This document shows, piece by piece, positions 6,201 to 64,000 of a stretch of 64,000 nucleotides of DNA. The translations under genes were made by a program, and so were the position numbers. The notes beneath the pieces are model-generated. The model was not told where the DNA came from and did no database searches. It was given only the letters and a program-made list of their open reading frames with translations. The first letter of the stretch is position 1. Each line of letters starts with the position of its first letter. Location of the stretch: positions 1 through 64,000 of IMG/VR virus record IMGVR_UViG_3300043464_002317; one strand, given 5' to 3'. This stretch comes from a virus.

Positions 6201-6647
6201 TTATTTATAATCTGATGAAAAGATTTTTCCTAATACGTTCTTGTTATAACAACCTTCAGTTTGCAGACAATCTGAACATAAAATAAATTTTAATTCCCAA
6301 GCTGTCATATTTCTTCTTGTTTTGCAAAACTGCAATATTTTTTTTATGTACTTATGCCCAATAGCTAGGTCTTCATTTAGCTCTTTGCATGAACCTGTAT
6401 AACTTTGCCAATTTGTTTCTGAAACATCAATCTTAAACTTTTTACGTTTGTTTTCTGGTAAGGCTTTTTCTTTTATTGTAAGCTTCTTTTTCCTGTAAGA
6501 ATAAAAAGATTTTTTCCCAATATAAATTTTATTATTTGTTAAGTTCTCAATTATGTATACAAAACCCTCATAACCTTCTGGAGCTTTTTTTACTGCCTTT
6601 TCAGATAAAGAGTCTATCCAATCTTGATGTAACTTCTTTTTAGGCAT
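6201..6647 (-). CDS. GIY-YIG-like endonuclease
   Basis: GFVYIIEN...KIYIGKK, WQSYTGS, WE and YN.N motifs. Confidence 0.75.
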   Translation of the reverse strand: MPKKKLHQDWIDSLSEKAVKKAPEGYEGFVYIIENLTNNKIYIGKKSFYSYRKKKLTIKEKALPENKRKKFKIDVSETNWQSYTGSCKELNEDLAIGHKYIKKILQFCKTRRNMTAWELKFILCSDCLQTEGCYNKNVLGKIFSSDYK

Positions 6648-6732: not shown

Positions 6733-7707
6733 TCATATTCCAAAATTATTTTTAATTTTATTTTCTAACTCGTTTGCAAACTCAGGATTATCTGTTAAAA
6801 ATTGTTTTACTTGAGCTGCTCCCTGACCTATTTTATTTCCATCTACAGAAAACCAAGAGCCGCTTTTTTGAATAAAATTTAACTCTTCTGCATATTGTAA
6901 AATCTCTGAGTTTTTATCAATACCTTTTCCAAAAACAATATCGTATTCGCATTGCATGAATGGAGCAGCTATTTTATTTTTTACTACTTTAGCTTTTCCT
7001 TTGCTATCTAAAAGATTACCTTCTTTATCTTTATTTCCTTGTGATTTACTTGTTTCTACTCGTATAGAAGCATAATATTTCAAAGCCTTTCCTCCTGTTG
7101 TGGTTGTAGGATTTCCAAACATTACGCCAATTTTATCTCGCATTTGATTTGTAAATATTAAAAGGGTGTTTGTACTAGCAACTATTCCTGTTAATTTCCT
7201 CATTGCTTGAGACATTAATCGTGCATGTAAACCCATCTTGGAATCACCCATATCCCCCTCTAGTTCTGCTTTTGGAACTAAAGCTGCTACAGAATCTATC
7301 ACACAAACATCAATAGCTCCAGATTTAATAAGTTCTTCTGCGATAGACAGTGCATCTTCTCCGCAGTCTGGTTGAGAAATTAAAAGTTCGTCAACGTTTA
7401 AACCTAAATTTTTTGCATATTGTTTATCGAAGGCATGTTCGGCATCAATGAATGCCACTACACCCCCCTTTTTTTGTGCTTCAATCATTGTGTGAATGCA
7501 TATTGTTGTTTTTCCAGATGATTCTGCACCATAAATTTCAACAATACGTCCTTTTCCCCATCCACCTCCTGTGGCTATGTCTAATCCAAGAGAGCCTGTA
7601 GATAATCTTTCAACTTCAAGAATTTCATTTCCTAAAATTGTTGCTCCTTTGCCGTACTTTTTTTCAAGTAATGCTCTAGTTTCCGATAACTTTTTTTGTT
7701 TGTCCAT
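6733..7707 (-). CDS. recA: RecA recombinase
   Basis: STGSLGLDIA, GAESSGKTT, IDAEHA, SQPDCGE, DSVAAL, ARLMSQAMRK, GGKALKYYASIR. Confidence 0.98.
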   Translation of the reverse strand: MDKQKKLSETRALLEKKYGKGATILGNEILEVERLSTGSLGLDIATGGGWGKGRIVEIYGAESSGKTTICIHTMIEAQKKGGVVAFIDAEHAFDKQYAKNLGLNVDELLISQPDCGEDALSIAEELIKSGAIDVCVIDSVAALVPKAELEGDMGDSKMGLHARLMSQAMRKLTGIVASTNTLLIFTNQMRDKIGVMFGNPTTTTGGKALKYYASIRVETSKSQGNKDKEGNLLDSKGKAKVVKNKIAAPFMQCEYDIVFGKGIDKNSEILQYAEELNFIQKSGSWFSVDGNKIGQGAAQVKQFLTDNPEFANELENKIKNNFGI

Positions 7708-10469: not shown

Positions 10470-13400
10470 ATGGAAACTATACAAAAACCAAAATTAGCTT
10501 ACAAAGATTTTCTAATCAATCAAAACCAACCTACAAGGGACAGCGCAGAGTATGTCCCTTTTTGGCTTAAACATATTGAATATTGCAAGTCTGGTGTTAG
10601 TGTAGGTGGAATAGAGATTTCTGGTTGGCTATATTGGCATTTAAATTTTTTCAAAATACCTGTAGATGAAAAAGATAAATACGGCAATAAGATACGTGTT
10701 ATCACATCACCACCTCTAAGAGATAACGAGTATTATTTGAATTGGGGGCGTGAAAAAGGTTACAAAGAACAAAAACCTATCATAATTTTCGGAAGTAGAC
10801 GTATTGCTAAATCAACTGTATTAGCCTCAGATATTTGTTATTCTCTATTTATTATGCTCAATAGTAATTCTGTTGTTATTGGAGCAAGTACAGTTGATAT
10901 TAATAATATTACAGATTATATTACATTTTTCTATTCAAATAGACCCGAATGTTTTTCAGATTTAATGAAATTTGGAGATTTTACAAGAGAAGGGGGCAAT
11001 GTAGAAATAGCTTTTAGTAAAAGAGAAACAACTAAAAAAGACCCAACAACAGGAAAGGCTGGACTTATTAATCCAATAACACCTCACTTGCTAAAAATAG
11101 GCAACGACAATAAATACATTTTTTCAACCCTTTCTGTTAGAAACTTAGAGTTTGGAACAAAGCACAATAAACAAGAAATGCTTGCAGGTATTACACCATC
11201 TAAGGTCATATTTGATGAGGTTGGTAAGTTTTCTTACTCTTTACCATTTTCAGCTTTAAAACCTGCCCTAATAGATTCTTTTGGAGAGTATCGTACAATC
11301 CCTATGTTTGTTGGGTGTTTAACAAAAGGAAATAAAGTATGGGACTCTGATGGAAATATGCTAAATATAGAGGATTTACAAAAGAACCAAGGGATAAAAG
11401 GATTTAGCATAAAAAATCAAGAGGTTACAAATGAAAAAATAACCTATTGGCAAAAACCATTTAAAAAACCATGTGTAAAAATTACAACAAATAAAGGTTT
11501 AGAAATAAGTTGCAGCACTGACCATCCTATTCTCTCAAGAAAATATTTAGAATCTCAAAAAAGAATTGGAAGAGCTATAAGTTTTGAAGAAGCCTCTAAA
11601 TTAAAAATCAATGATGTTGTTGCTGTTGCAGATATTATTCCCATTCAAGGGACTAAAAAAATGTGGAATCCATACTTAGTTGGTTGTTTAATAGGAGATA
11701 GCAGCTATGGTAAAGATAAAACACCAGTTCTTTCTAATGAGGATAATGAAATTTGGGAACATTTAGATAGTTTAAACATAAGTCATACAGTAGAAAAATC
11801 TTACACTACTAAAAAAAACAGATTATATAAAGAGGTAAGAATTAAAAGTATAACGCAAAAGTTACGAGAATTAGGAATTTATGGACAAACAAAAAAAGAC
11901 AAAGATTTGCCTATAAATATTCACTCTTATGATAAAGAATCTATATGTGAACTTATAGCTGGATTAATAGATACAGACGGTTGTATTTTAAATATTCCAT
12001 CAAACAGAAATATTACATTAACAAGTAGCTCTAAAAAACTTGTAGATAGTTTAAAACTTTTATTATTAAGAATCGGTATTCATTCAAATATTGATGTTAA
12101 AAGAGATAAAAGAATTGGCAGAAAAATAATGCCAAAAGAGGAGTTTTATTTGATAGGCATATATGATAAAGCATCCATAGATAGATTCTATGAAAATATT
12201 CCAATTAAAATTAACAGGAAAAAAGAAACTCTACAACAATTAGTCGACTACTATAAGAATAGAAAAAGTAAAAAAAGTCAGAAATATGCAGGTTTAAGGT
12301 TTGAAAAAATTTCAAAAATTGAAGATATAGGAGAACAAGAAGTCTATAATCTTACAGCTGGAACTACAAATACATATCTTGCTAATGGAATTGTTACCCA
12401 TAATACAGGGGGTGATATTGATAGCTCTAAAGACGCTGAAAGAGACTTCTTAAATGCGGAAGAAAATGGATTTCTAGCTGTAAATTCAGAAGAATATAAA
12501 AATTTAGTAACCGAGGGTAATTTTGAATACAAACAAAAAAGTAATTTAAAAACAGGTTTTTTTGCCCCTGCACAGATGTGTAATGCAGGAGGTGTGAAAA
12601 AAGAAATTCCTATATCCGCATACATTCGTAAATCTTATACTAATGAAGACTTAGAGGATTTAGAAGGTTTTATCATTCAAGTGACAGATTGGGTATCAGC
12701 TCCAGAGAACTTACAAAAAGAAATTCAAATAGAGGAGAAAAAATCAGATAAGGAAGGTAAAAAAGCTAAAATGTACTATCCTTTTCAACCAGAGGATTGT
12801 TTTTTATACTCTGGCAATAATCCTTTTCCAGTAGAAGAAGCTAAAGTTACCTTACAAAAAATAAAAGATTCTGGTAATATAGGAGAAAAAGTTATTTTAA
12901 AGCAAGAAATAAATGGAACTATAATTATTGAACCTTCAAGTAAGAGATTAATAGAAACCTACCCTTTTGAAGGAGGAACACACGATGCTCCATGTGTAAT
13001 GTACGAAAGACCAATTCATGATAACCCTTATGAAATTAGAAAAGGCATCTACGTAGCAGGATTTGACGGATATAAAATAGCAGAATCTAAAACAACAGAC
13101 TCTGTAGGTACTTTTTATATTTATAAGAGAATGTGTGGTTTGGATGGATTGCAAAATCAGATAGTGTTCAGTTTAGCAACTAGACCTCCAAAAGATGAAG
13201 ATTTTTATCAACAAGTTATGCTTGCTGTTTTAAAATATAACGCTGATTTACTTCCAGAACGAGATACTAATCTCTATAATTTTTTAGCAAATAAAAAAAT
13301 GGAACATCTTATTGTCAATTGTCAATCTGTTGTATTTAGATATACTCCAAACACAAATGCTAGTACAACCTATGGATTACCTGCCACACCGCAAAATAAA

Positions 13401-13712
13401 GAGCATTATCTTAAAATGATTCAAAAGTATTGTAATGATAATGTTTTAATAGGTTATACTGATAATGATGAACCTATAACCATAAAAGGAGTTGAAAGAA
13501 TAACAGACCCAATACTGTTAAAAGAGATAATAGATTATGGTAAAGAAAAAAATGCCGATAGATTAGCGGCTTTTGGACATGCCCTTGTTTGGGATAACGA
13601 GTTACAAACCAGAGGGGTTATCGCAACACAAGACCCATATAAACCACCAACACAAACAAAACCAGTTCGTAAACAATCCACATTTTCAACAATCATGGGA
13701 AGACACAGGTAA
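10470..13712 (+). CDS. terL: terminase large subunit with intein
   Basis: GSRRIAKS (Walker A), VIFDEVG (Walker B), VG|TGG, nuclease AGFDGY...DSVG and C-terminal ADRLAA; lies upstream of the portal. Confidence 0.92.
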   Translation: METIQKPKLAYKDFLINQNQPTRDSAEYVPFWLKHIEYCKSGVSVGGIEISGWLYWHLNFFKIPVDEKDKYGNKIRVITSPPLRDNEYYLNWGREKGYKEQKPIIIFGSRRIAKSTVLASDICYSLFIMLNSNSVVIGASTVDINNITDYITFFYSNRPECFSDLMKFGDFTREGGNVEIAFSKRETTKKDPTTGKAGLINPITPHLLKIGNDNKYIFSTLSVRNLEFGTKHNKQEMLAGITPSKVIFDEVGKFSYSLPFSALKPALIDSFGEYRTIPMFVGCLTKGNKVWDSDGNMLNIEDLQKNQGIKGFSIKNQEVTNEKITYWQKPFKKPCVKITTNKGLEISCSTDHPILSRKYLESQKRIGRAISFEEASKLKINDVVAVADIIPIQGTKKMWNPYLVGCLIGDSSYGKDKTPVLSNEDNEIWEHLDSLNISHTVEKSYTTKKNRLYKEVRIKSITQKLRELGIYGQTKKDKDLPINIHSYDKESICELIAGLIDTDGCILNIPSNRNITLTSSSKKLVDSLKLLLLRIGIHSNIDVKRDKRIGRKIMPKEEFYLIGIYDKASIDRFYENIPIKINRKKETLQQLVDYYKNRKSKKSQKYAGLRFEKISKIEDIGEQEVYNLTAGTTNTYLANGIVTHNTGGDIDSSKDAERDFLNAEENGFLAVNSEEYKNLVTEGNFEYKQKSNLKTGFFAPAQMCNAGGVKKEIPISAYIRKSYTNEDLEDLEGFIIQVTDWVSAPENLQKEIQIEEKKSDKEGKKAKMYYPFQPEDCFLYSGNNPFPVEEAKVTLQKIKDSGNIGEKVILKQEINGTIIIEPSSKRLIETYPFEGGTHDAPCVMYERPIHDNPYEIRKGIYVAGFDGYKIAESKTTDSVGTFYIYKRMCGLDGLQNQIVFSLATRPPKDEDFYQQVMLAVLKYNADLLPERDTNLYNFLANKKMEHLIVNCQSVVFRYTPNTNASTTYGLPATPQNKEHYLKMIQKYCNDNVLIGYTDNDEPITIKGVERITDPILLKEIIDYGKEKNADRLAAFGHALVWDNELQTRGVIATQDPYKPPTQTKPVRKQSTFSTIMGRHR
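11316..12404 (+). mobile_element. intein with LAGLIDADG homing endonuclease (363 aa)
   Basis: Starts CLTKG, block B STDHP, VGCLIGD and LIAGLIDTDG motifs, ends VYNLT...TYLANGIVTHN followed by Thr. Confidence 0.95.
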
Positions 13713-57600: not shown

Positions 57601-60600
57601 AATCAAAACGATGTACTTAACGTCATACAAAATGGATTATCAAGAATTGGTCGTGGGGCGAGAGTAACTATGATAAATCTTGCAGATGAGACAGTTATTG
57701 ATGTTTCAAGGATAAACAATCCAGAACAAATTGAAGTTATATCAGATGGAATTCGTTTTTATATAATTACTCCAGCAGATGTAGCTCCAAACGTAGTTAT
57801 TAAAGAGCAACTAGGCTTAGAAGTTGGAGATGCAGAAAGAAAGTTTACAACAATACGAAATGATAAGGGAACTGTAATCTCATCACCATTCAGAGCTGCA
57901 AATCAAATTACTCCAGCTTCAGACGATGTTATTCACTCATTGAAAATAGATGATGAAGTAGAAATTTTTGTTGCAGATAATCAATATAATAGGGATTTAC
58001 AAGATAAGAGAAATAACAACGAAATAACAGAACAAGAATATACAGATAAGTTGGTTCTTTCTGTTGTAAAGAATGGTGAAATTATCGGAGTTCTAAGAGC
58101 AGCAGACTTTCTATTTGAACAAGAAGAAAATCAAGCTCAAATGGACGAATTCCGTTCGCAATTCGCAAATCGAGAATTAGGCGATAGAATTGGTTCTACA
58201 CCAGTACAAGGTTTTGAAGTTGCTCGTGGCTATAATTATGTAAATGGTCAGATTCAATACACAACATTAAACGAATACAATCCTGTAAACTATAGCACAT
58301 CTTTTTATTTTGTAAAAGAAGATGGAACTATTATTGATGAACAAGGTAATGAAGTTCAAGAAGACTTTTTTGACCGAGGGAGTTTTGCGCAAGGCGGTGT
58401 CTATATGCGTGTTGATGGAGTAAATAATAAAAAGAATCATACAGTTCAAGTTCTACGTAGTGATAACGATAACTCTGTATTTACTGAAGAAGAATTTACA
58501 AGCGGTAAATTTAAAGAAATAGGGCAAACAAGCCTATCGGATGAACCTATTATTTCTAAGCGTATATCTATTTCTTTGAGACAAGTAAAAGATACTGATA
58601 CTACACACAGTGAAGGTATAAAAGAACAAGTTCAGAATATTACTGATAATAAAGTTTTATCTCAAGAAGAGGAAAAAGAAGTAGCTAAATTGGAAAAAGA
58701 TTTAGCTAAAAAACAAGAATCTTTAGATAAAGTAAATAGGCAAATTGACGAGAATAAAGAAAGAGTAAAAAAATACAACGAAAGCGGAGTATTGGGTCAA
58801 GCGGAGTATAAAAAACTTACTAAAAAAGATATTGATTTAAATATATCTAAACAATCTCTTGAAAAAGATATTCAAGATATAAATCAAAAAATAAAATTAA
58901 TTAAAGGTGACAGAGCAGTAATTGAAGATGTTAACGGAGCTCAAACTGTAGTAGATTCTGTTGTAGAATCAGAAAATGAAACTGTTTTAATATCAGTTAA
59001 CGGAGAAACTGTAGAAGTTAAACTTTCTGAAATCAGTTCAGTAGAACCTGTAGAAACAAGTAGTGATGGTGTAGGGGGGGAAGATGTAGATGTAAAAGAT
59101 GATATAGAAAGAAGAAGACAAGAAAAATTAAGTCAAATTAAACCTGATGGTAAAACTTCTAAAGATAGAAGAAAAGTTTTAATGTTAAACGAAGATTCTG
59201 ATAAAACATTTGATGAATCTTTACAAGAAGCAGGGTATGTAAATGTACAAGGGGTTTGGGTTGAACCAGATATAAACATAGAATTACTAAAAAGTTTACC
59301 TCAAATTTTTTGGGAATACTTATTTGATAAACAAGTTATTTTAGTAAATGACACTACTAAAGAAAGAGGTGGGCAAAGTGCAGACAGAACATTTAAAAAC
59401 GAATCAAGACCTGTTATTTCTTTAGGTAAAAATTCTTCTACGAAAGGAACTTTACAGTTAATTGCACATGAACTTGGTCATTTTGAGTTTAGAAAATTAT
59501 CTGAACAAGAAAAAAACTCTTTAAAAAACTATGGTACAGCATCTACTTGGTATGTAAAAGGTTTAGAAGAAGGAACTTACAAATCAGCAGCAGAAAATTA
59601 TGAAGAAAATTTTGTTGAAAATTATGCAGCAGATTTATTACAAAAAATGGGAATTTCTAAAGGTGTAGATAGAGCTGAAATAAAAATTAATTCCATTTAT
59701 AAAACTATTTTTGATAAAATCAATGCCAAATATGATGCAGAACTAGATGCTTTACAACAACCTAACGAAGAAACAATAGTTTCAGAACAACAACTACCAG
59801 CAGAACAAGTACAAACAGCACCTACAGAACAAGATGCTAACAAATGGATAGCTCAAAATGCTAAAACAGGTGATAAATTAATATTAACAGATGGAACTGA
59901 AATAGAAATAGTTTCTAATGAAGATGGTGTAATAACTATTAAAAGAACTAAAAATGATACTACTGTACAACAAGTATTTCGAGTTTTACCTGATGGTACT
60001 GTTGTTTCAGATGAACCATTATCTTTAGAAAAAGCTGAAGAACCATTAGCTCTACCAAGAAAACCACAAGATACTACAGTTATAGACTCTTTCAGAGAAA
60101 GATTAAGAAAACATGGGATAGAATCAGAAGTTGTTTTATCAGCTTTATCTCAAGTATATCAAAAATCTATAAATGAAGGCAATCCTATAACAAATCTTGA
60201 CGATTTGATTGAAGCTTCTGGATTGACAGCAACTCAAAAAGAACAGTTACAAATGGTTCTTACTCCAGTATATAGAATGGGTGTATGGCAATTCTTAACT
60301 AATTCTGATACTATTTTTGATATTGCTCAACAAGAAAGATGGGCAGCATTTCAAACAACCATCAAAAGTATTCTTGAAGAATCTAGCACTGTAGAAAGTT
60401 CCCTACCTACTGACAACTTAAAAAATGAATTTAAATTAAACGTAATAGATGCCCTTTCAGATGTATTTAATAATTTCAAAATCGGTATCAAAAACATTGA
60501 AATAGCTAATACATTTACTTTACCTGATTGGAATAAAATAACATCAGCTTTAAGTGCAGCAGTTAACACTATAAATCCAAGAGAAGCTATTGTTAAGTTA

Positions 60601-61284
60601 CAACAAGACTTAGCTGAGTTAGGATTACAAGTATACGCAAAAGGACTAATTCAAGTAGCTAGAGTTTCAAGAGCTTCATTAGGTAGAAATCCGCAAGTAG
60701 CTACAGACTATAACAATGTATACACAGATTTATCCATGGCAAATGTAGATGGTAAAATATTTGTTCGTAACGAAAAAGACGGTCTTTTTGTAGAAGTTAA
60801 AGCAACTAAGAAAAAATTTTCAGAAAATGTTATAAATATTCAAAAAGATTTATTATCTTTGTTGGGAGTAAAATTCCCATTAGAATATTTAAACGCATAT
60901 CAACGTATAAACGGAGATTTTGCAGCATTAAAAGAAAGAGCCATATATGAACAACAAAGAGCCGATGCTTTACCTAATTTCTCTTTCTCAGAGATTAAAC
61001 CAGAAAGTATATCATTTGTCACTGAGGATTTATTCGTATCTAAATATTCTGCTAGTACATTAAGTCTTGATGGTAAAAAATATTATAATCTACTGACACT
61101 TGAAAATGGAGAAACTGTTTATGCACCTATAAATAAACGTTTAAACTCAGCAGAAGTAAGAAACTTACTAAAGAGAAACGGGCTTAATGTAGGTAAAATT
61201 GTAAGAAAAGACCAATCATTCGCAGAAAGATTATCTAAAATAGCAAAAATTAAAAAACAATTAGAAAAAATAACTTGTAACTAA
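54661..61284 (+). CDS. giant virion cargo protein with hydrophobic N-terminal helices and an inserted zincin cassette
   Basis: 2207 aa; GEAAIEA and EGVEEVLQ motifs; HELGH at ~59467. Confidence 0.75.
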   Translation: MNTPEYYAKFAAPSSFEGSYVAPQKSFDFDAVYNYAGKNLGYITRYPELSPYGDSEQIQAEKQSGWDKALNSGLQLGALATNTFANHFYSYGRQASALTNQDWSKLWQDDFGQESAQMIQGVSDLYPIYETEEQQRLRDEEGGLSTSLKQFVPFTGRAGNAWANLAGQLGFMAGTAGAVALESAGLAALTAATEGVAAPLALTKTVSNAKLLKSMYTLYKNARTGLTGVKNAAQSAGLIGNIVKSPVFTTYRMLTAAQGEAAIEANINALEYKNKQLEKYGVNVTPEQMQEIDTRATELGNTVFNWNAPVLMLGNAMTIGSLFRVGNLGKSATSQLIKEEATGVIKKKFGELTTKEALNPFIKKTWEFSKKGGKFVVNENLYEGVEEVLQGIGGRAAQHMYETYDSEGGKGLDAFLTALGEETSNTFSTREGWDEFVSGALTGYGIKGITSVYNRATGATAKEQAIRDFTQKGVEQDIQSVNNYMKSVLTNTDPNTNYVKNQVASIEQQETAIADGNVKVAKDAQGQTKIGLFSKLQKYGTSVSDDIFDLWGETMKEMQKTNETDFRQMMGDRNVEEVVSKLKQENKQFNDVYNTIDKNAKNPYNQKTDSKNYQLYEQAKLFAAGMEYNARDSKERGQAIVKDLTTNFGIDETLIASMFDGTTLRDNLTTAKKLFKLQEEALKNAATPEEREALEQELLKSKEKVELLQAIETGAFDEKGNPVYGEKNPEETAAMFIKAYYRDKSALVPDELKKNIEDLITLETESEGYLAAYNFLSNKDYLEKFAESYLNEANKKIAQSEKNISRNQKAASKPIITPEEKYDDNQVDEALTGTTAKASITDFLEEVRSKKQSDGTYLHNGKKYNTAKELAEDLKKETEGFEDLLDQTNDKGESIDSILEKALNNLEEELTEPGDAVRKTEGQPKQVIQPKTKTQSEAEIKKGFWQKSSPYNTKVHSFDLVISFLFPKDLSYLFDSLVKANQNDVLNVIQNGLSRIGRGARVTMINLADETVIDVSRINNPEQIEVISDGIRFYIITPADVAPNVVIKEQLGLEVGDAERKFTTIRNDKGTVISSPFRAANQITPASDDVIHSLKIDDEVEIFVADNQYNRDLQDKRNNNEITEQEYTDKLVLSVVKNGEIIGVLRAADFLFEQEENQAQMDEFRSQFANRELGDRIGSTPVQGFEVARGYNYVNGQIQYTTLNEYNPVNYSTSFYFVKEDGTIIDEQGNEVQEDFFDRGSFAQGGVYMRVDGVNNKKNHTVQVLRSDNDNSVFTEEEFTSGKFKEIGQTSLSDEPIISKRISISLRQVKDTDTTHSEGIKEQVQNITDNKVLSQEEEKEVAKLEKDLAKKQESLDKVNRQIDENKERVKKYNESGVLGQAEYKKLTKKDIDLNISKQSLEKDIQDINQKIKLIKGDRAVIEDVNGAQTVVDSVVESENETVLISVNGETVEVKLSEISSVEPVETSSDGVGGEDVDVKDDIERRRQEKLSQIKPDGKTSKDRRKVLMLNEDSDKTFDESLQEAGYVNVQGVWVEPDINIELLKSLPQIFWEYLFDKQVILVNDTTKERGGQSADRTFKNESRPVISLGKNSSTKGTLQLIAHELGHFEFRKLSEQEKNSLKNYGTASTWYVKGLEEGTYKSAAENYEENFVENYAADLLQKMGISKGVDRAEIKINSIYKTIFDKINAKYDAELDALQQPNEETIVSEQQLPAEQVQTAPTEQDANKWIAQNAKTGDKLILTDGTEIEIVSNEDGVITIKRTKNDTTVQQVFRVLPDGTVVSDEPLSLEKAEEPLALPRKPQDTTVIDSFRERLRKHGIESEVVLSALSQVYQKSINEGNPITNLDDLIEASGLTATQKEQLQMVLTPVYRMGVWQFLTNSDTIFDIAQQERWAAFQTTIKSILEESSTVESSLPTDNLKNEFKLNVIDALSDVFNNFKIGIKNIEIANTFTLPDWNKITSALSAAVNTINPREAIVKLQQDLAELGLQVYAKGLIQVARVSRASLGRNPQVATDYNNVYTDLSMANVDGKIFVRNEKDGLFVEVKATKKKFSENVINIQKDLLSLLGVKFPLEYLNAYQRINGDFAALKERAIYEQQRADALPNFSFSEIKPESISFVTEDLFVSKYSASTLSLDGKKYYNLLTLENGETVYAPINKRLNSAEVRNLLKRNGLNVGKIVRKDQSFAERLSKIAKIKKQLEKITCN

Positions 61285-64000
61285 TGGCTTGTATTTTAAA
61301 AGATAAAAACGGAAATGTAACTTCAGTAACAGCTGACAATGGAAAACCATCTCAACTATTTGATGCAATTAATAAAATACCAGTTTTTGAAAATAGAAAC
61401 AAAGCAGCAGAATTTTATGCTTATATTGTCTCTGAAAAGTATAATCAACAAAAAGATTTACTATTAGATAATAATGGAGAGCCAGTTTTATTTTTTAAAG
61501 ATTTAACAACAACTACAGACCCTGCATCTGGTCAATTTAAATATGAAACAGACTTTTTAATTTCGTTTAATAAAGACAAAGATTCAAAAGGTATACAAAT
61601 AGGTTTTTTAAAAGGAACTGAAACTCAAACAGATTCGGCTAAAAACTTTGTACAAATAGAAAAATTTGAAAGAAATTTAAATCCAAGAACATACTCTGGT
61701 TTTATTGAAAACATGTTGAGCAGAGGTGTACAGCTGACGACTAAAACTGAGAGTGAGCCATCTCAAGCAGGTAGTGTTGGGAAATTGAATGTTGTTGACA
61801 AAACTAAGGATATATTAGACGAAGTTACTGATGAAAAAATAGGTGAAAAAAAGTATCAAGACTTTTCTATTGATTTTGAAGACGGGGCAAGAGCTTTTGG
61901 GACAATTGAAAATGGAGTTGCAAATATTTCAGGCATCAATGCACCTAAAAAAGAAGACAGCGTTATTGAGCCAAAAAGAGGAACAAAAACATACGAAAGA
62001 GTAATTGAAAAGTTAAAAGAAAATGGAATAAAAACCATTAAGGTATCTTTACAATCACAAGACAGTCAAACAGCACTATCTAAGTTAGTTGAAAAAGGTA
62101 TATTGTCAAACCCAAGAGATATGCAAGGGGTGAGCGACAGTCAATTTGCTACCACTTTTGATATACAATCCCTCAAAGAAACACTCCAAGCAGGTAGTGT
62201 TGGTGTAGGGGGAGATGTGAAGCAACAAGAATTGGATGCACAGAGGGTTAACAAAGAAGCAGGTGTAGATATTTATGTAGCAAGACAAGATGTGGATGCG
62301 AATGGCAGTACATACACATTATCGCAAATAAAGGAGAATGGGAATACCAATACATTTTTAATTGAAGATGCCAATGGTAATGAAGTTGGGAAAGCACAAT
62401 TAAGTGTAGATGGTAATTATTTAGAGAATATAAGGATTGACGAAAATCACAGAAGAAAAGGACTTGCAAGTAAGGTATACGATTTTATAGAATTACGAAA
62501 AGGTATTGAATTAAAGCCTTCACCAAATAAGCAATCAAAAGAAGCTAAAGCGTTGTGGGATAATCGTAATTTAAAAAAATCAGAACAACCCCTCAAAGAA
62601 CAACAGACTCAAACTACTCCAGAAAAAACTTTATTTGACAGAGCTGTTGATTCATTAAAATCATTTGTAGCTTTTAAGGATACTAACGTAACAACTGACG
62701 ACACTAATTTGAAAAAAGCTTTGAACGCTGTAGATTTAAAAACTCCAAAAGGAGAAATCTACGGTGCATCTTATGTCAATGCAGACGGGCAACAAGAAAT
62801 TTATATCAATCCTGAAAAACTTTCAATCGAGTCATTAATCCATGAAAATTTTCATCCGTTTCAAGTAGCACTTAGAGAAGCAGCTAAAAGCGGAGACCCA
62901 CAAGCAAAAGCATTTATAGACAGAATGCTTGAACTTGCAAAACAAGAAGTAAAAGATAATTTTGCACCTGCCGAAGCCGAGCAGATTTTGGCGCAGTTTG
63001 AAAATAGGTTGACAAAAACATCTATGCCAGAAACAACCCCTGTAAACTTCTTTGCAATAGGTCAAAGAGGTGCTATGGCTCTTGATAAAATAGAAGGAGG
63101 ATTTAATAGATTAAAAAGACTAAAAGAAGCAAAAGAATTAGAAAGTTTAGGAAAATCTAACGCATACATAAAATTTTTGACAGGTTGGGAAAGACAAGAT
63201 GGTAAATGGAAAACAGAAATTGATGATTTTACTGATTTAAAAACAACCCCAGAACAAATTCTTAATCTCAGAGAAAATATAGGAGCAACAACAACCGTAA
63301 AAGAATTTTTTAATAATAATGCAGCAATTGTTTTACAAGCATTTCCTAAAATAGGAGATATAACTGTAAGATACGATGACAATGCTACAGGAGCTTATGC
63401 ACATTATGACCCTATAAATAAAGAAATAGTCTTTTATAAAGATTATTTAGATAGACCAGTAAATGATATTAAAAGTTCATTTCTTCATGAAATACAACAC
63501 GCTATCCAACAAATAGAAGGTTTTGATTTTGGAGCTGACGAAAATATGCAAAAGATTTTGTCAGATATGCATAAAATAACTACAAATGATGCATATTTTA
63601 GGTCAGCTAGTGAAGTTGAAGCAAGAAACATACAAAAACGTATGTTGATGTCAGCTAAAGATAGATTACTTACTGAATTAGATGCTACAGCAGATGTTTT
63701 ACCAGAAGATAGGCTTTTTATAGCAGATGCTTTAGATGCAACAAATAAAGCTATAGTCAAGTTATCTGATGTTAACTTCGTAAGAAATATGGAAGTTAAA
63801 CCAATAGCCAATGAAATAGATGTTGTAAACGGATTTTATTCTCCTATTGAAAAAATATTAACTGAAACAAAAATTGAAAAACAGAGTGGAGCGAAGTGGC
63901 TTTCAGTAGTAGGTAAAGGTGACGAGGCTACATGGACAGGAGTTAAAAATTGGTTAGAAGAAAATTCACAAAAACAAATTTCAAAATCTGAAATTCAGCA
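61284..64000 (+). CDS. giant polyvalent cargo protein, 5' part (two GNAT-like cassettes, zincin, LPD23-like/MPTase); truncated by the window
   Basis: Not in the ORF track because it has no stop; translated by hand from MACILKDKNG. Contains IRIDENHRRKGLASKVY, IHENFH, TGWERQDGKWKTEIDD and LHEIQHAIQQIEGF..EVEARNIQKR. Confidence 0.85.
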   Translation, partial: MACILKDKNGNVTSVTADNGKPSQLFDAINKIPVFENRNKAAEFYAYIVSEKYNQQKDLLLDNNGEPVLFFKDLTTTTDPASGQFKYETDFLISFNKDKDSKGIQIGFLKGTETQTDSAKNFVQIEKFERNLNPRTYSGFIENMLSRGVQLTTKTESEPSQAGSVGKLNVVDKTKDILDEVTDEKIGEKKYQDFSIDFEDGARAFGTIENGVANISGINAPKKEDSVIEPKRGTKTYERVIEKLKENGIKTIKVSLQSQDSQTALSKLVEKGILSNPRDMQGVSDSQFATTFDIQSLKETLQAGSVGVGGDVKQQELDAQRVNKEAGVDIYVARQDVDANGSTYTLSQIKENGNTNTFLIEDANGNEVGKAQLSVDGNYLENIRIDENHRRKGLASKVYDFIELRKGIELKPSPNKQSKEAKALWDNRNLKKSEQPLKEQQTQTTPEKTLFDRAVDSLKSFVAFKDTNVTTDDTNLKKALNAVDLKTPKGEIYGASYVNADGQQEIYINPEKLSIESLIHENFHPFQVALREAAKSGDPQAKAFIDRMLELAKQEVKDNFAPAEAEQILAQFENRLTKTSMPETTPVNFFAIGQRGAMALDKIEGGFNRLKRLKEAKELESLGKSNAYIKFLTGWERQDGKWKTEIDDFTDLKTTPEQILNLRENIGATTTVKEFFNNNAAIVLQAFPKIGDITVRYDDNATGAYAHYDPINKEIVFYKDYLDRPVNDIKSSFLHEIQHAIQQIEGFDFGADENMQKILSDMHKITTNDAYFRSASEVEARNIQKRMLMSAKDRLLTELDATADVLPEDRLFIADALDATNKAIVKLSDVNFVRNMEVKPIANEIDVVNGFYSPIEKILTETKIEKQSGAKWLSVVGKGDEATWTGVKNWLEENSQKQISKSEIQ

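What the first reader, a model, noticed from the sequence alone, without database searches (positions are those of the whole stretch)
61761..62610. Tandem in-frame effector cassettes bounded by conserved DNA junctions in a giant ejected protein
Seen: two ~420 bp units each open with CAAGCAGGTAGTGTTGG (61764, 62187; QAGSVG[VGGDV]) and close with CAA(T/C)CCCTCAAAGAA (62166, 62586; QSLKE/QPLKE). The interiors are not similar at DNA level and look more G-rich than the surrounding gene. Unit 2 has a clear GNAT acetyl-CoA motif (IRIDENHRRKGLASKVY...SKEAKALW); unit 1 looks like a divergent GNAT. Established: polyvalent phage proteins carry GNAT and zincin domains into the host. Inference: the junctions are recombination handles for an integron-like, in-frame domain-swapping system that diversifies host-modifying or anti-defence enzymes injected with the DNA, possibly using the phage RecA.
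Basis: partly seen in the sequence, partly recalled or inferred. Interest (0 to 1): 0.85.

Follow-up and report, generated by a model that had tools for sequence, protein, structure and literature searches.

The report
Conserved junctions swap phage effector domains
Inside a giant virion protein of a lake-water phage, two enzyme-sized domains are bordered by a short DNA junction that is kept letter for letter in otherwise very different phages from lakes and oceans, and related genomes switch partners exactly there, so it looks like a universal in-frame splice point for exchanging effector domains.

Summary
The 17-mer is exact at 61764 and 62187 and the 15-mer stands at 62166 and 62586; the interiors are unrelated.

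The gene is a 2100-aa polyvalent virion protein (61284 to contig position 67586). Unit 2 is a GNAT. Unit 1 is an unnamed domain family, not a detectable GNAT.

The junction has two halves: GAA CAA TCC [C/A]TC AAA GAA (EQS[L/I]KE) and GCA GGT AGT GTT GGT GTA GGG GGA GAT GTG (AGSVGVGGDV). It recurs at domain borders of giant ORFs: 42 opening cores in 33 sources here, and more in 4 MAG contigs. Portals of these phages are 26-36% identical or undetectable.

Conservation is at nucleotide level and includes rare codons. Codon-blind patterns gave 7 of 8 opening cores identical; closing halves in frames chosen by the opening pattern gave 16 of 18.

Nine of nine scorable non-duplicate related pairs pass from 87-100% identity to random inside the motif. 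The same GNAT cassette sits in five contexts. One homologue has a unit-1-type domain where another has the GNAT, and an ortholog lacks unit 2.

Best reading (0.7): short in-frame homology linkers for general homologous recombination. No integrase was found. This is a new variant of motif-mediated exchange.

The parts
61284..64000 (+). 5' 905 codons of a 2100-aa polyvalent virion protein gene; it continues to contig position 67586
   Evidence: ORF lists and translations. Pfam: GNAT aa 354-403, LPD23 aa 610-648, zincin-like DUF6782 aa 683-757, second GNAT aa 1972-2051.
61764..61780 (+). Opening half-junction, copy 1 (left part only, QAGSVG). It is joined directly to unit 1.
   Evidence: Exact 17-mer. 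P0010 carries the same cassette at 98% identity behind EQSLKETPQAGSVG.
61764..62180 (+). Unit 1: a 139-aa cassette of an unnamed domain family with conserved motifs (K/R)RGFF, LQSxDS, NPR and HPTxFDI
   Evidence: 63 representative homologues at E up to 0.001, both stand-alone (127-185 aa) and embedded in proteins up to 4000 aa at varied positions. No Pfam, PDB or GNAT match.
62166..62180 (+). Closing half-junction, copy 1: CAA TCC CTC AAA GAA (QSLKE)
   Evidence: The same 15-mer is in G001 (twice) and many other loci.
62187..62219 (+). Opening half-junction, copy 2, full form: CAA GCA GGT AGT GTT GGT GTA GGG GGA GAT GTG (QAGSVGVGGDV)
   Evidence: 62166-62206 is 40 of 41 nt identical to G001. 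The core GGTGTAGGGGGAGA recurs in 42 places in 33 sources.
62220..62582 (+). Unit 2 interior: GNAT acetyltransferase cassette (Pfam match covers about 62343-62492)
   Evidence: Pfam Acetyltransf_1. The same cassette, 79-90% aa identical, sits in P0006, P0007, P0008 and the L029 protein in different contexts. It is about 89% nt identical to L029 only between the junction halves.
62583..62600 (+). Closing half-junction, copy 2: GAA CAA CCC CTC AAA GAA (EQPLKE)
   Evidence: Homology with L029 ends after AAAGAA.
59043..59081 (+). Diverged opening half-junction (SSDGVGGED) in the upstream 2207-aa gene, before a zincin-like stretch
   Evidence: Repeat family D1, 77% identical to 62177-62215. GGTGTAGGGGGGGA at 59068. 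Weak Peptidase_M78 hit at aa 1573-1617, below the cut-off.
6733..7707 (-). UvsX-like recombinase: a candidate, not a demonstrated, catalyst of the exchanges
   Evidence: phrog_97, E 1.2e-87. Homologues in G003 and G005 only, 2 of 5 other records.

Best explanation
The region holds two unrelated, enzyme-sized domain cassettes fused in frame inside a 2100-aa polyvalent virion protein. Unit 1 is an unnamed family; unit 2 is a GNAT acetyltransferase. Each cassette is bordered by a two-part inter-domain junction. The closing half is GAA CAA TCC [C/A]TC AAA GAA (EQS[L/I]KE). A variable spacer of 2 to about 22 residues follows. The opening half is GCA GGT AGT GTT GGT GTA GGG GGA GAT GTG (AGSVGVGGDV). 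The two halves, about 18-30 nt each, act as portable patches of DNA homology, always read in the same frame. General homologous recombination between any two copies (in co-infecting phages, or between genes) joins whatever lies left of one copy to whatever lies right of the other without breaking the frame. Effector domains (GNAT, ParB-like, ADP-ribosyltransferase, zincins, many unknown) are thereby inserted, lost or swapped between polyvalent proteins of very different phages. Repeated exchange keeps the junction DNA homogeneous while everything around it diverges. The encoded peptide, a hydrophobic-K-E helix end followed by a Gly-rich stretch, is probably a neutral linker that tolerates any neighbour. 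SHOWN: nucleotide-level conservation, variable content, and breakpoints inside the motif. INFERRED: the enzyme (UvsX-like, another phage recombinase, or host RecA), selection for exchangeability, and delivery of the protein into the host.
For: (a) Nucleotide-level conservation.
- The codon-blind pattern GGNGTNGGNGGNGA gave 6 of 6 hits as GGTGTAGGGGGAGA in five other records. In G000 it gave 2 hits, one of which differs at one synonymous site.
- CARWSNHTNAARGAR gave 10 hits. The 6 in junction context are all CAATCC[C/A]TCAAAGAA.
- Cross-ascertainment: in frames chosen only by the opening DNA pattern, 16 of 18 Q[SP][LIVM]KE peptides use CAA-[T/C]CC-[C/A/G]TC-AAA-GAA. In frames chosen only by the closing pattern, 4 of 5 GS[VI]G / G[VI]GG[DE] peptides use GGTAGTGTTGGT.
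- The codons used are rare in these genomes: TCC 4-7% of Ser, CTC 1-8% of Leu, ATC 7-14% of Ile, GGG 5-20% of Gly. The chance of the consensus codons is 1e-4 to 3e-3 per copy.
- Control: in backbone domains shared by G000 with G001 or G002, identical residues share a codon only 44-63% of the time, and the longest exact nt run is 8-15. Across the junction, G000 and G001 match at 40 of 41 nt.
- Portals are 36% (G001) and 26% (G003) identical, or not detected in 3 of 5 records.

(b) Breakpoints.
- G000 against L029 is about 89% identical only from GGTAGTGTTGG to AAAGAA.
- G003 and G005 are 100% identical downstream and random upstream. G005 and L156 are 100% identical upstream and random downstream. 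Both crossovers lie inside the shared 28 nt.
- Among 42 cores, 11 pairs reach 70% identity on one side. Nine are one-sided, with the other side at 0.28-0.34. One could not be scored. The single two-sided pair has two records of the same length (63,549 nt) that match 100% on both sides, apparently one contig held in two collections.
- At the closing half, L159 against L160 is 0.94 upstream and 0.34 downstream.

(c) Variable content.
- There are 34 downstream and 40 upstream sequence types.
- Pfam on 20 downstream stretches found ART-PolyVal in 4 stretches from 3 loci and ParB_N in 2.
- The GNAT cassette sits in five contexts at 79-90% aa identity, while the shared backbone is 54-60% identical.
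- Unit 1 at 98% identity sits in a different context in P0010.
- P0012 and P0015 show absence and replacement of cassettes.

(d) The arrangement is real.
- Contigs from two other studies bridge it: X2, 1592 nt over 61721-63312 with 1 mismatch; X5, 2891 nt over 60800-62663.
- Other contigs in the same runs match only 62165-62215 and then continue into unlike sequence.
Against: - No recombination was observed directly. All breakpoints are inferred from assembled contigs, and one of the G003/G005/L156 trio could be an assembly chimera at the shared repeat.
- The three L155/L159/L160 pairs are not independent events.
- The DNA patterns used select for the consensus codons. Only searches are codon-blind or cross-ascertained.
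- The residue at the L/I/V position changes only to other hydrophobic residues. The peptide is therefore also under selection, and a peptide-level role could be the primary reason for conservation.
- A UvsX homologue is missing from 3 of 5 other records, so no common enzyme is identified.
- The first locus list includes L152, a probable chance hit in a short ORF.
- Whether 26-41 nt of identity suffices for efficient exchange in these phages is assumed from general knowledge of phage recombinases.
Confidence: 0.7

Rival explanations
1. The junction is conserved for what the peptide does. One option is a maturation-protease cleavage site: [L/I]-K-E followed by T or Q resembles the L/I-x-E site of T4-type prohead proteases (recalled, not from a call). 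That would cut the polyprotein into separate effectors. Another option is a packaging or ejection signal, or a structural linker. Recombination there would be a by-product, and the nucleotide identity would reflect recent spread.
For: - The variable residue is always hydrophobic: L, I or V, through first-position changes only.
- An extended peptide, AYHKAKADG(S/T)NPELVKAVEQS[L/I]KE, recurs before many junctions.
- Iyer et al. 2017 (PMC5512222, passages seen) propose autoproteolytic release of domains from polyvalent proteins by their zincin domains, and zincin-like domains are present here.
- Within one cassette lineage (G000 against L029) the junction is no better conserved than the cassette itself: 1 of 27 and 2 of 18 differences, against about 10% in the cassette.
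Against: - A peptide constraint does not explain why rare codons are kept at synonymous sites across phages whose other shared domains have saturated synonymous sites.
- It does not explain why every scorable related pair breaks there.
- The motif is truncated at different points (QAG, GSVG, GSVGV, GSVGVG), which is odd for a recognition site.
- No prohead protease was identified among the ORFs scanned.
Confidence: 0.15
2. A dedicated enzyme acts on the junction DNA. This would be an integron-like site-specific recombinase, or a sequence-specific nuclease (homing-endonuclease style) that cuts the motif and provokes repair from another copy.
For: - The nucleotide sequence itself is conserved, including rare G/C-rich codons in genomes of 32-39% G+C.
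- The tight junction can fold into a hairpin pairing UCCCUC with GGGGGA: -19.4 kcal/mol, z -2.56, 5 of 200 shuffles as good.
- The 148-aa ORF next to the recombinase has weak hits to homing-endonuclease PHROGs, E about 1e-5.
Against: - No integrase was found among the 27 G000 ORFs scanned.
- The two hairpin arms lie in halves whose spacing varies from 2 to about 22 codons, and the common L-to-I variant (CTC to ATC) breaks the stem.
- The conserved sequence is cut off at different points in different copies, unlike a fixed crossover point.
- The carrier phages differ in size and gene content, with CheckV completeness from 63 to 100%.
Confidence: 0.08
3. The rare-codon cluster is a translational pause at domain borders that helps each domain of a giant protein fold before the next emerges.
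For: Rare codons (TCC, CTC/ATC, CCC, GGG) cluster exactly at domain borders.
Against: The common codons in the motif are equally invariant (CAA, AAA, GAA, GGT, GTT, GTA). Pausing explains neither the breakpoints nor the identity across phages.
Confidence: 0.03
4. Artefact or trivial origin: a simple tandem duplication within this gene, or chimeric metagenome assemblies joined at a short repeat.
For: Two units of equal size stand side by side. Assemblers can mis-join at repeats. G003 and G005 have adjacent sample numbers in their contig names.
Against: - The units share no similarity beyond the junction.
- Independent studies' contigs bridge both units.
- Cassettes shared between contexts are 87-95% identical rather than 100%, so they come from different populations.
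- The junction is found in IMG/VR, JGI, ENA, TARA and MAG records.
Confidence: 0.02

Closest known systems
Polyvalent proteins of phages and conjugative elements (Iyer, Burroughs, Anand, de Souza, Aravind 2017, PMC5512222; passages seen)
   Same: A giant phage protein that strings together unrelated effector or enzyme domains: GNAT, zincin, ParB-like, ART-PolyVal, LPD23. It lies next to genes with PHROG virion-structural matches. The paper raises 'recombinational variability' for one kinase-linked system.
   Different: In that paper's main text 'linker' and 'shuffl' occur 0 times. A nucleotide-conserved junction that marks domain borders and breakpoints is not described in the passages I saw.
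Glycine-rich motifs and His boxes of T-even tail-fibre adhesins gp38/gp37 (Trojet et al. 2011, PMC3157838, abstract and passages seen; it cites Tetart et al. 1996, 1998)
   Same: [quoted passage not shown] That is in-frame motif-mediated shuffling in a phage protein.
   Different: There the motifs form the structural core of a single domain and shuffle short loops of a receptor-binding protein among close relatives. Here a two-part linker separates whole enzyme domains of unrelated folds, and it is shared by phages with barely related or undetectable portal homology.
Polymorphic toxin junctions (CdiA VENN, Rhs PxxxxDPxGL) with orphan cassettes (mechanism recalled; only the search listing was seen, e.g. 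PMC4725963, PMC6336857)
   Same: A conserved peptide and DNA motif marks where a variable effector domain begins, and provides homology for replacing it by recombination.
   Different: Those systems have one variable C-terminal position, each toxin is paired with an immunity gene, and they are bacterial. Here there are several internal positions per protein, both sides of a cassette carry junction halves, no immunity genes were seen, and the carriers are phages.
Integron gene cassettes (attC x attI, IntI); features recalled, not from a call
   Same: Discrete cassettes of varied function are bounded by recognisable conserved ends and drawn from a shared pool. The ends could serve as PCR handles to harvest cassettes.
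   Different: No integrase was found. The cassettes are in-frame protein domains, not promoterless genes. The ends are not attC-like folded sites with constant geometry.
Modular theory of phage evolution with conserved linker or boundary sequences (Botstein 1980, cited in PMC3157838 as seen; Susskind and Botstein 1978 and Clark et al. 2001 recalled only)
   Same: Short conserved sequences at module borders let homologous recombination reassort modules between distantly related phages.
   Different: The classical examples lie between genes. Here the linkers are inside reading frames, keep the frame, and act at the level of protein domains.

Membership tests
Polyvalent protein (Iyer et al. 2017) | One polypeptide with several unrelated enzymatic or effector domains | tested here: met
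   Pfam on the 2100-aa protein: Acetyltransf_1 (aa 354-403), LPD23 (610-648), DUF6782 zincin-like (683-757, below cut-off), Acetyltransf_10 (1972-2051).
Polyvalent protein (Iyer et al. 2017) | Carries a 'large polyvalent protein associated domain' (LPD) | tested here: inconclusive
   LPD23 scores 27.6 bits against a cut-off of 27 on the 905-aa part, but 26.1 bits on the whole protein. This is borderline.
Polyvalent protein (Iyer et al. 2017) | Encoded by a phage or conjugative element, in a virion or late-gene context | tested here: met
   Terminase, portal and structural PHROGs on the contig. Three of the 5 neighbouring giant genes scanned match 'virion structural protein' PHROGs.
Polyvalent protein (Iyer et al. 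2017) | Delivered into the host cell with the DNA | not testable with these tools
   Inferred from gene position only.
GNAT acetyltransferase (unit 2) | Match to a GNAT profile above the curated cut-off, including the acetyl-CoA motif region | tested here: met
   Acetyltransf_1, 32.5 bits against 20.7, aa 354-403, covering IRIDENHRRKGLASKVY.
GNAT acetyltransferase (unit 1) | Detectable homology to GNAT by profile or fold | tested here: not met
   0 of 20 family members hit a GNAT Pfam model at E up to 1. hhalign against unit 2 gives probability 0.18%. PDB profile search gives a best E of 0.054 to an unrelated protein.
Integron | Adjacent IntI-type tyrosine recombinase | tested here: not met
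   No integrase match among the 27 G000 ORFs scanned with PHROGs. The contig is only 54% complete, so absence from the phage is not proven.
Integron | attC-type folded recombination site of constant geometry at each cassette end | tested here: not met
   The hairpin of the tight junction has z -2.56. Its arms lie in halves with variable spacing, and the L-to-I variant breaks it.
Polymorphic toxin system | Conserved motif marking the start of a variable effector domain | tested here: met
   34 downstream sequence types follow one conserved core.
Polymorphic toxin system | Single C-terminal variable toxin with a cognate immunity gene and orphan cassettes downstream | tested here: not met
   The cassettes are internal and multiple per protein. 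The gene downstream of P0003 is another giant protein, 1735 aa.
Motif-mediated adhesin shuffling (T-even gp38/gp37) | Exchanges located within or next to the conserved motifs | tested here: met
   9 of 9 scorable non-duplicate related pairs break within about 21 nt of the core.
Motif-mediated adhesin shuffling (T-even gp38/gp37) | Occurs in tail-fibre adhesin genes, with motifs that are part of the fold | tested here: not met
   The host protein is a multi-enzyme polyvalent protein. The motif lies between domains.

The most novel reading that the evidence does not exclude
The junction is more than passive homology. It would be a recognised recombination signal, cut or paired by a dedicated enzyme that may be carried in the virion. 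That would make these polyvalent genes an in-frame, protein-level counterpart of the integron, through which phages of Bacteroidota across lakes and oceans draw on one common pool of injected effector domains. The rare, G/C-rich codons would then be kept because the enzyme reads them.
Probability: 0.12. Interest if true: 0.9.

Novelty: new variant of a known kind. Interest (0 to 1): 0.72.

Why it matters
Polyvalent proteins are thought to carry a phage's first-strike enzymes against host defences. How their domain sets change so fast has been described only as 'mosaicism'. Here the seams are visible. One short DNA junction, kept letter for letter in phages from lake water, the TARA ocean survey and other metagenomes, marks where domains are exchanged.

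- It gives a concrete and testable mechanism for effector diversification.
- It gives a rule for cutting giant uncharacterised phage proteins into functional units.
- It gives a practical handle. Primers on the two junction halves should amplify unknown effector cassettes straight from viromes, as attC primers do for integron cassettes.
- It suggests a natural adaptor for building multi-domain cargo proteins in frame.

Tried and rejected
Rejected readings:
- Simple tandem duplication.
- Unit 1 as a GNAT: not supported.
- G-richness of the interiors: within one sd of the gene.
- A functional hairpin: considered, but the spacing varies and a common variant breaks it.
- An internal start or Shine-Dalgarno reading of GGGGGAGATGTG: considered from the sequence and dropped. 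The spacing to the in-frame GTG is 2 nt.

Searches that gave little:
- The exact 17-mer in viral contigs gave 10 stretches, of which only L013 (G001) had the junction context.
- The search for related loci with the junction peptide alignment A2 failed for lack of a conserved stretch.
Three were clear relatives (L079, L084, L091). L063/L066/L134 and L065/L090 were left unresolved.
- GenBank phages hold no match to the 66-nt junction. They hold no close relative of the protein, only domain-level hits below 60% identity.
- Pfam gave nothing for unit 1, the G003 cassette, the G004 protein or P0009.
- Thirteen of 20 downstream stretches had no Pfam hit at E up to 0.001.
- Chance or unrelated hits set aside: in the viral scans L151, L152, L158, L163 and 12 of 26 closing-pattern loci; in the metagenome scan L189, L191, L194; in the genome scan L202, L203, L205.
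- Depth differences between contigs in run X4 (21 against 67-88) and uncovered bins in X3 are not used as evidence, because they are contig-wide figures.
- Host: 2 of the 4 true MAG hits are labelled Bacteroidota (Saprospiraceae, Bacteroidetes). The other two are labelled Brocadiaceae and Gammaproteobacteria and may be mis-binned. No host claim beyond 'probably Bacteroidota' is made; portal similarity to Cellulophaga phages is 28.5%.

Literature: searches found no paper describing a conserved nucleotide junction in polyvalent proteins. Supplements were not available and were not consulted.

Full report
WHAT IS THERE

The window is bases 1-64000 of an 81,322-nt IMG/VR viral contig with estimated completeness 54%. 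The finding lies in an ORF that starts at 61284 and runs off the window. On the contig it ends at 67586 and encodes 2100 aa.

The 17-mer CAAGCAGGTAGTGTTGG is exact at 61764 and 62187. One search found 2 matches at up to 3 mismatches against 0.06 expected. CAA(T/C)CCCTCAAAGAA is at 62166 and 62586. One search found 2 matches at up to 1 mismatch against 0.01 expected. Both are read in frame as QAGSVG and Q(S/P)LKE.

The two interiors share nothing:
- No blastn hit is better than E 0.7, and blastp aligns only QAGSVG.
- hhalign of a 20-member unit-1 profile against unit 2 gives probability 0.18%.

Unit 2 is a GNAT: Acetyltransf_1, 32.5 bits against a cut-off of 20.7.

Unit 1 belongs to an unnamed family:
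- It has 63 representative homologues at E up to 0.001.
- Some are stand-alone proteins of 127-185 aa. Others are embedded at varied positions in proteins of up to 4000 aa.
- It has no Pfam, PDB or GNAT match.

The claimed G-richness is within one sd of the gene.

CONTEXT

The contig encodes a terminase, a portal, virion proteins and a UvsX-like recombinase. Upstream of the finding is a run of giant genes, several of which match 'virion structural protein' PHROGs. The portal is 28-31% identical to those of Cellulophaga phages phi17:2 and phi4:1 and of a gut phage, csAssE-Sib.

The protein itself carries GNAT, LPD23, a zincin-like stretch and a second GNAT. This is the make-up of a polyvalent protein as defined by Iyer et al. 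2017 (PMC5512222, passages seen).

The DNA occurs in lake-water metagenomes from many studies. Contigs from two other studies bridge both units, so the arrangement is not an assembly accident:
- X2: 1592 nt over 61721-63312, with 1 mismatch.
- X5: 2891 nt over 60800-62663.

THE JUNCTION ELSEWHERE

The exact 17-mer led to one true relative, G001 (134 kb). In a 2357-codon open frame there, the stretch CAA TCC CTC AAA GAA ACA CCC CAA GCA GGT AGT GTT GGT GT matches window 62166-62206 at 40 of 41 nt. The flanks are unrelated. What follows carries a DGQHR motif that I read as ParB-like, with no Pfam support. It closes with a second EQSLKETPQ before a methyltransferase-like domain.

A word search with aa 280-330 found four proteins, P0006-P0009. 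A cassette search found L029, in record G002. Further copies came from:
- a codon-blind DNA pattern;
- two junction patterns in viral contigs;
- one pattern in metagenome contigs, where 14 of 17 loci are true, including two TARA ocean scaffolds;
- the same pattern in genome contigs, where 4 of 7 are true, two of them in Bacteroidota MAGs.

In the set analysed (before the genome-contig scan) the opening core occurs 42 times in 33 sources. L152, a probable chance hit in a short ORF, is one of these. Nearly all the others lie in open frames of hundreds to thousands of codons on both sides.

The junction has two halves:
- Closing half: (AAA GCA GTA) GAA CAA TCC [C/A]TC AAA GAA.
- Opening half: GCA GGT AGT GTT GGT GTA GGG GGA GA(T/G) GT(G/T).
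- Between them is a spacer of 2 to about 22 residues.

IS IT DNA OR ONLY PEPTIDE?

The evidence from codon-blind tests is as follows.
- GGNGTNGGNGGNGA gave 6 of 6 identical hits in five other records. In G000 it gave two hits, one of which differs at one synonymous site.
- CARWSNHTNAARGAR gave 10 hits. The 6 in junction context are all CAATCC[C/A]TCAAAGAA.
- Cross-ascertainment: in frames picked only by the opening DNA pattern, 16 of 18 Q[SP][LIVM]KE peptides use the same codons. One has TCT in place of TCC and one is unlike. In frames picked only by the closing pattern, 4 of 5 opening-type peptides use GGTAGTGTTGGT, and the fifth is an unrelated peptide.

The codons are rare in these genomes: TCC 4-7%, CTC 1-8%, ATC 7-14% and GGG 5-20% of their families. 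The consensus codon string has a chance of 1e-4 to 3e-3 per copy.

As a control, I looked at backbone domains that G000 shares with G001 or G002. There, identical residues share a codon only 44-63% of the time, and the longest exact run is 8-15 nt.

Amino-acid changes do occur (L/I/V, S/P, G to V) while the neighbouring synonymous sites stay put. A few copies show synonymous drift: G001 at 95273 and G000 at 59068. This fits homogenisation with occasional decay better than an absolute constraint.

BREAKPOINTS

- G000 and L029 are about 89% identical from GGTAGTGTTGG to AAAGAA and random outside.
- G003 and G005 are 100% identical from AAGCAGGTAGTG onward and random before it.
- G005 and L156 are 100% identical up to GGGGGAGA and random after it. 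Together these three form a mosaic whose crossovers lie in the shared 28 nt.
- Among all core occurrences, 11 pairs reach 70% identity on at least one side. Nine are one-sided, with the other side at 0.28-0.34 against a background median of 0.32. One could not be scored. The only two-sided pair, L156 and L188, has two records of the same length (63,549 nt) that match 100% on both sides, apparently one contig held in two collections.
- At the closing half, L159 and L160 are 0.94 identical upstream and 0.34 downstream. That 100-aa ParB_N-type cassette therefore has both borders mapped, as does the GNAT cassette.

CONTENT

There are 34 downstream and 40 upstream sequence types.

The GNAT cassette, at 79-90% aa identity, sits in five different places:
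- near the N-terminus of P0003;
- after the HDLFGH region in P0006;
- mid-protein in P0007;
- at the N-terminus of P0008, whose remainder I took by eye to resemble P0004 (not tested);
- mid-protein in the 4211-aa L029 protein.

The backbone that P0003 shares with P0006 and with the L029 protein is only 54-60% identical.

Other comparisons point the same way:
- Unit 1 at 98% identity lies between two EQSLKETPQ copies in the 4000-aa P0010.
- P0015 has a unit-1-type domain where the L029 protein has the GNAT, after the same peptide KLITPLLEKE.
- P0012 aligns with aa 1-301 (N-terminus plus unit 1) at 50%. Its sequence after unit 1 resembles, by eye, what follows unit 2 here. I read this as an ortholog that lacks unit 2.

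Pfam on 20 downstream stretches found ART-PolyVal in 4 stretches from 3 loci, ParB_N in 2 and a weak Kelch_3 in 1. Thirteen had no hit.

MECHANISM

The simplest account is general homologous recombination between short, identical, in-frame linkers.

For it:
- The crossovers are compatible with any point in the motif.
- The conserved sequence is cut off at different points in different copies: QAG, GSVG, GSVGV, GSVGVG.
- The spacing of the halves varies.
- No integrase was found among 27 ORFs.

A UvsX-like recombinase is present here and in G003 and G005, but was not found in G001, G002 or G004. No single enzyme can therefore be named.

The peptide is also constrained, because the variable position stays hydrophobic. 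A role as a linker or as a protease site ([L/I]-K-E; the resemblance to T4-type sites is recalled, not tested) remains open and is compatible with the recombination reading.

The tight junction folds at -19.4 kcal/mol with z -2.56. However, its arms sit in separable halves, and the frequent CTC-to-ATC variant breaks the stem.

COMPARISON WITH WHAT IS KNOWN

- The protein is a polyvalent protein by composition. The source paper does not use the words 'linker' or 'shuffl' and mentions recombinational variability only in passing.
- Another is the junction motifs of polymorphic toxins (recalled; only the listing was seen).
- This case differs from both. It exchanges whole enzyme domains at several internal positions. 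It uses a two-part junction. It is shared by phages whose portals are 26-36% identical or undetectable, from lakes, oceans and other habitats.
- Four literature searches found no description of it. The scan's own index held no look-alike stretch.
I confirmed that motif.

VERDICT

Interest is 0.72.

Noticed in passing
window 63004-63043: In run X5 a 1778-nt contig matches 62737-63004 and 63043-63349 but holds 740 other letters in place of 38. The net gain is 702 nt, or 234 codons, so it is in frame. This is a possible further domain insertion polymorphism in the same gene, at a place without the junction motif.
   Followed up: no
window 62179-62215 (loose ends in run X2): A 200-nt contig from another lake sample matches only the junction. 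It is preceded by a variant closing peptide (ESLLSKE). After GGGGGAGA it continues directly with GCAACCCCTCAAAGAAAC, so an opening half is followed at once by a closing half. This may be an 'empty' cassette site.
   Followed up: no
L144 (G004), L161, L173, L196, L197, L206; P0007: Many cassettes end with a longer conserved peptide, AYHKAKADG(S/T)NPELVKAVEQS[L/I]KE, and many begin with GVGGDV-E-x-T-x-KALE. The 12 nt before the closing half (AAAGCAGTAGAA) are identical in several loci. Pfam has no model for either.
   Followed up: partly
window 10470-13712: The terminase large-subunit ORF is 1080 aa. Its N-terminal part (aa 298-598) matches a helicase PHROG, ahead of the TerL match (aa 641-1046).
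   Followed up: no
window 6201-6647 (-): The 148-aa ORF next to the UvsX-like gene best matches a PHROG named 'NAD synthetase' (E 4e-25). It has weak hits to homing-endonuclease PHROGs, E about 1e-5.
   Followed up: no
L143 10270-10713 (G003) and L145 (G005): A 143-aa cassette between AGSVGVGGEV and VVEQSIKEQPK has no Pfam match. It is identical in two phage records whose giant proteins differ completely upstream.
   Followed up: partly
L201 and L207 (genome contigs): Junction-bearing giant ORFs lie on contigs binned into MAGs labelled Brocadiaceae and Gammaproteobacteria. These are probably phage contigs mis-binned into those genomes.
   Followed up: no
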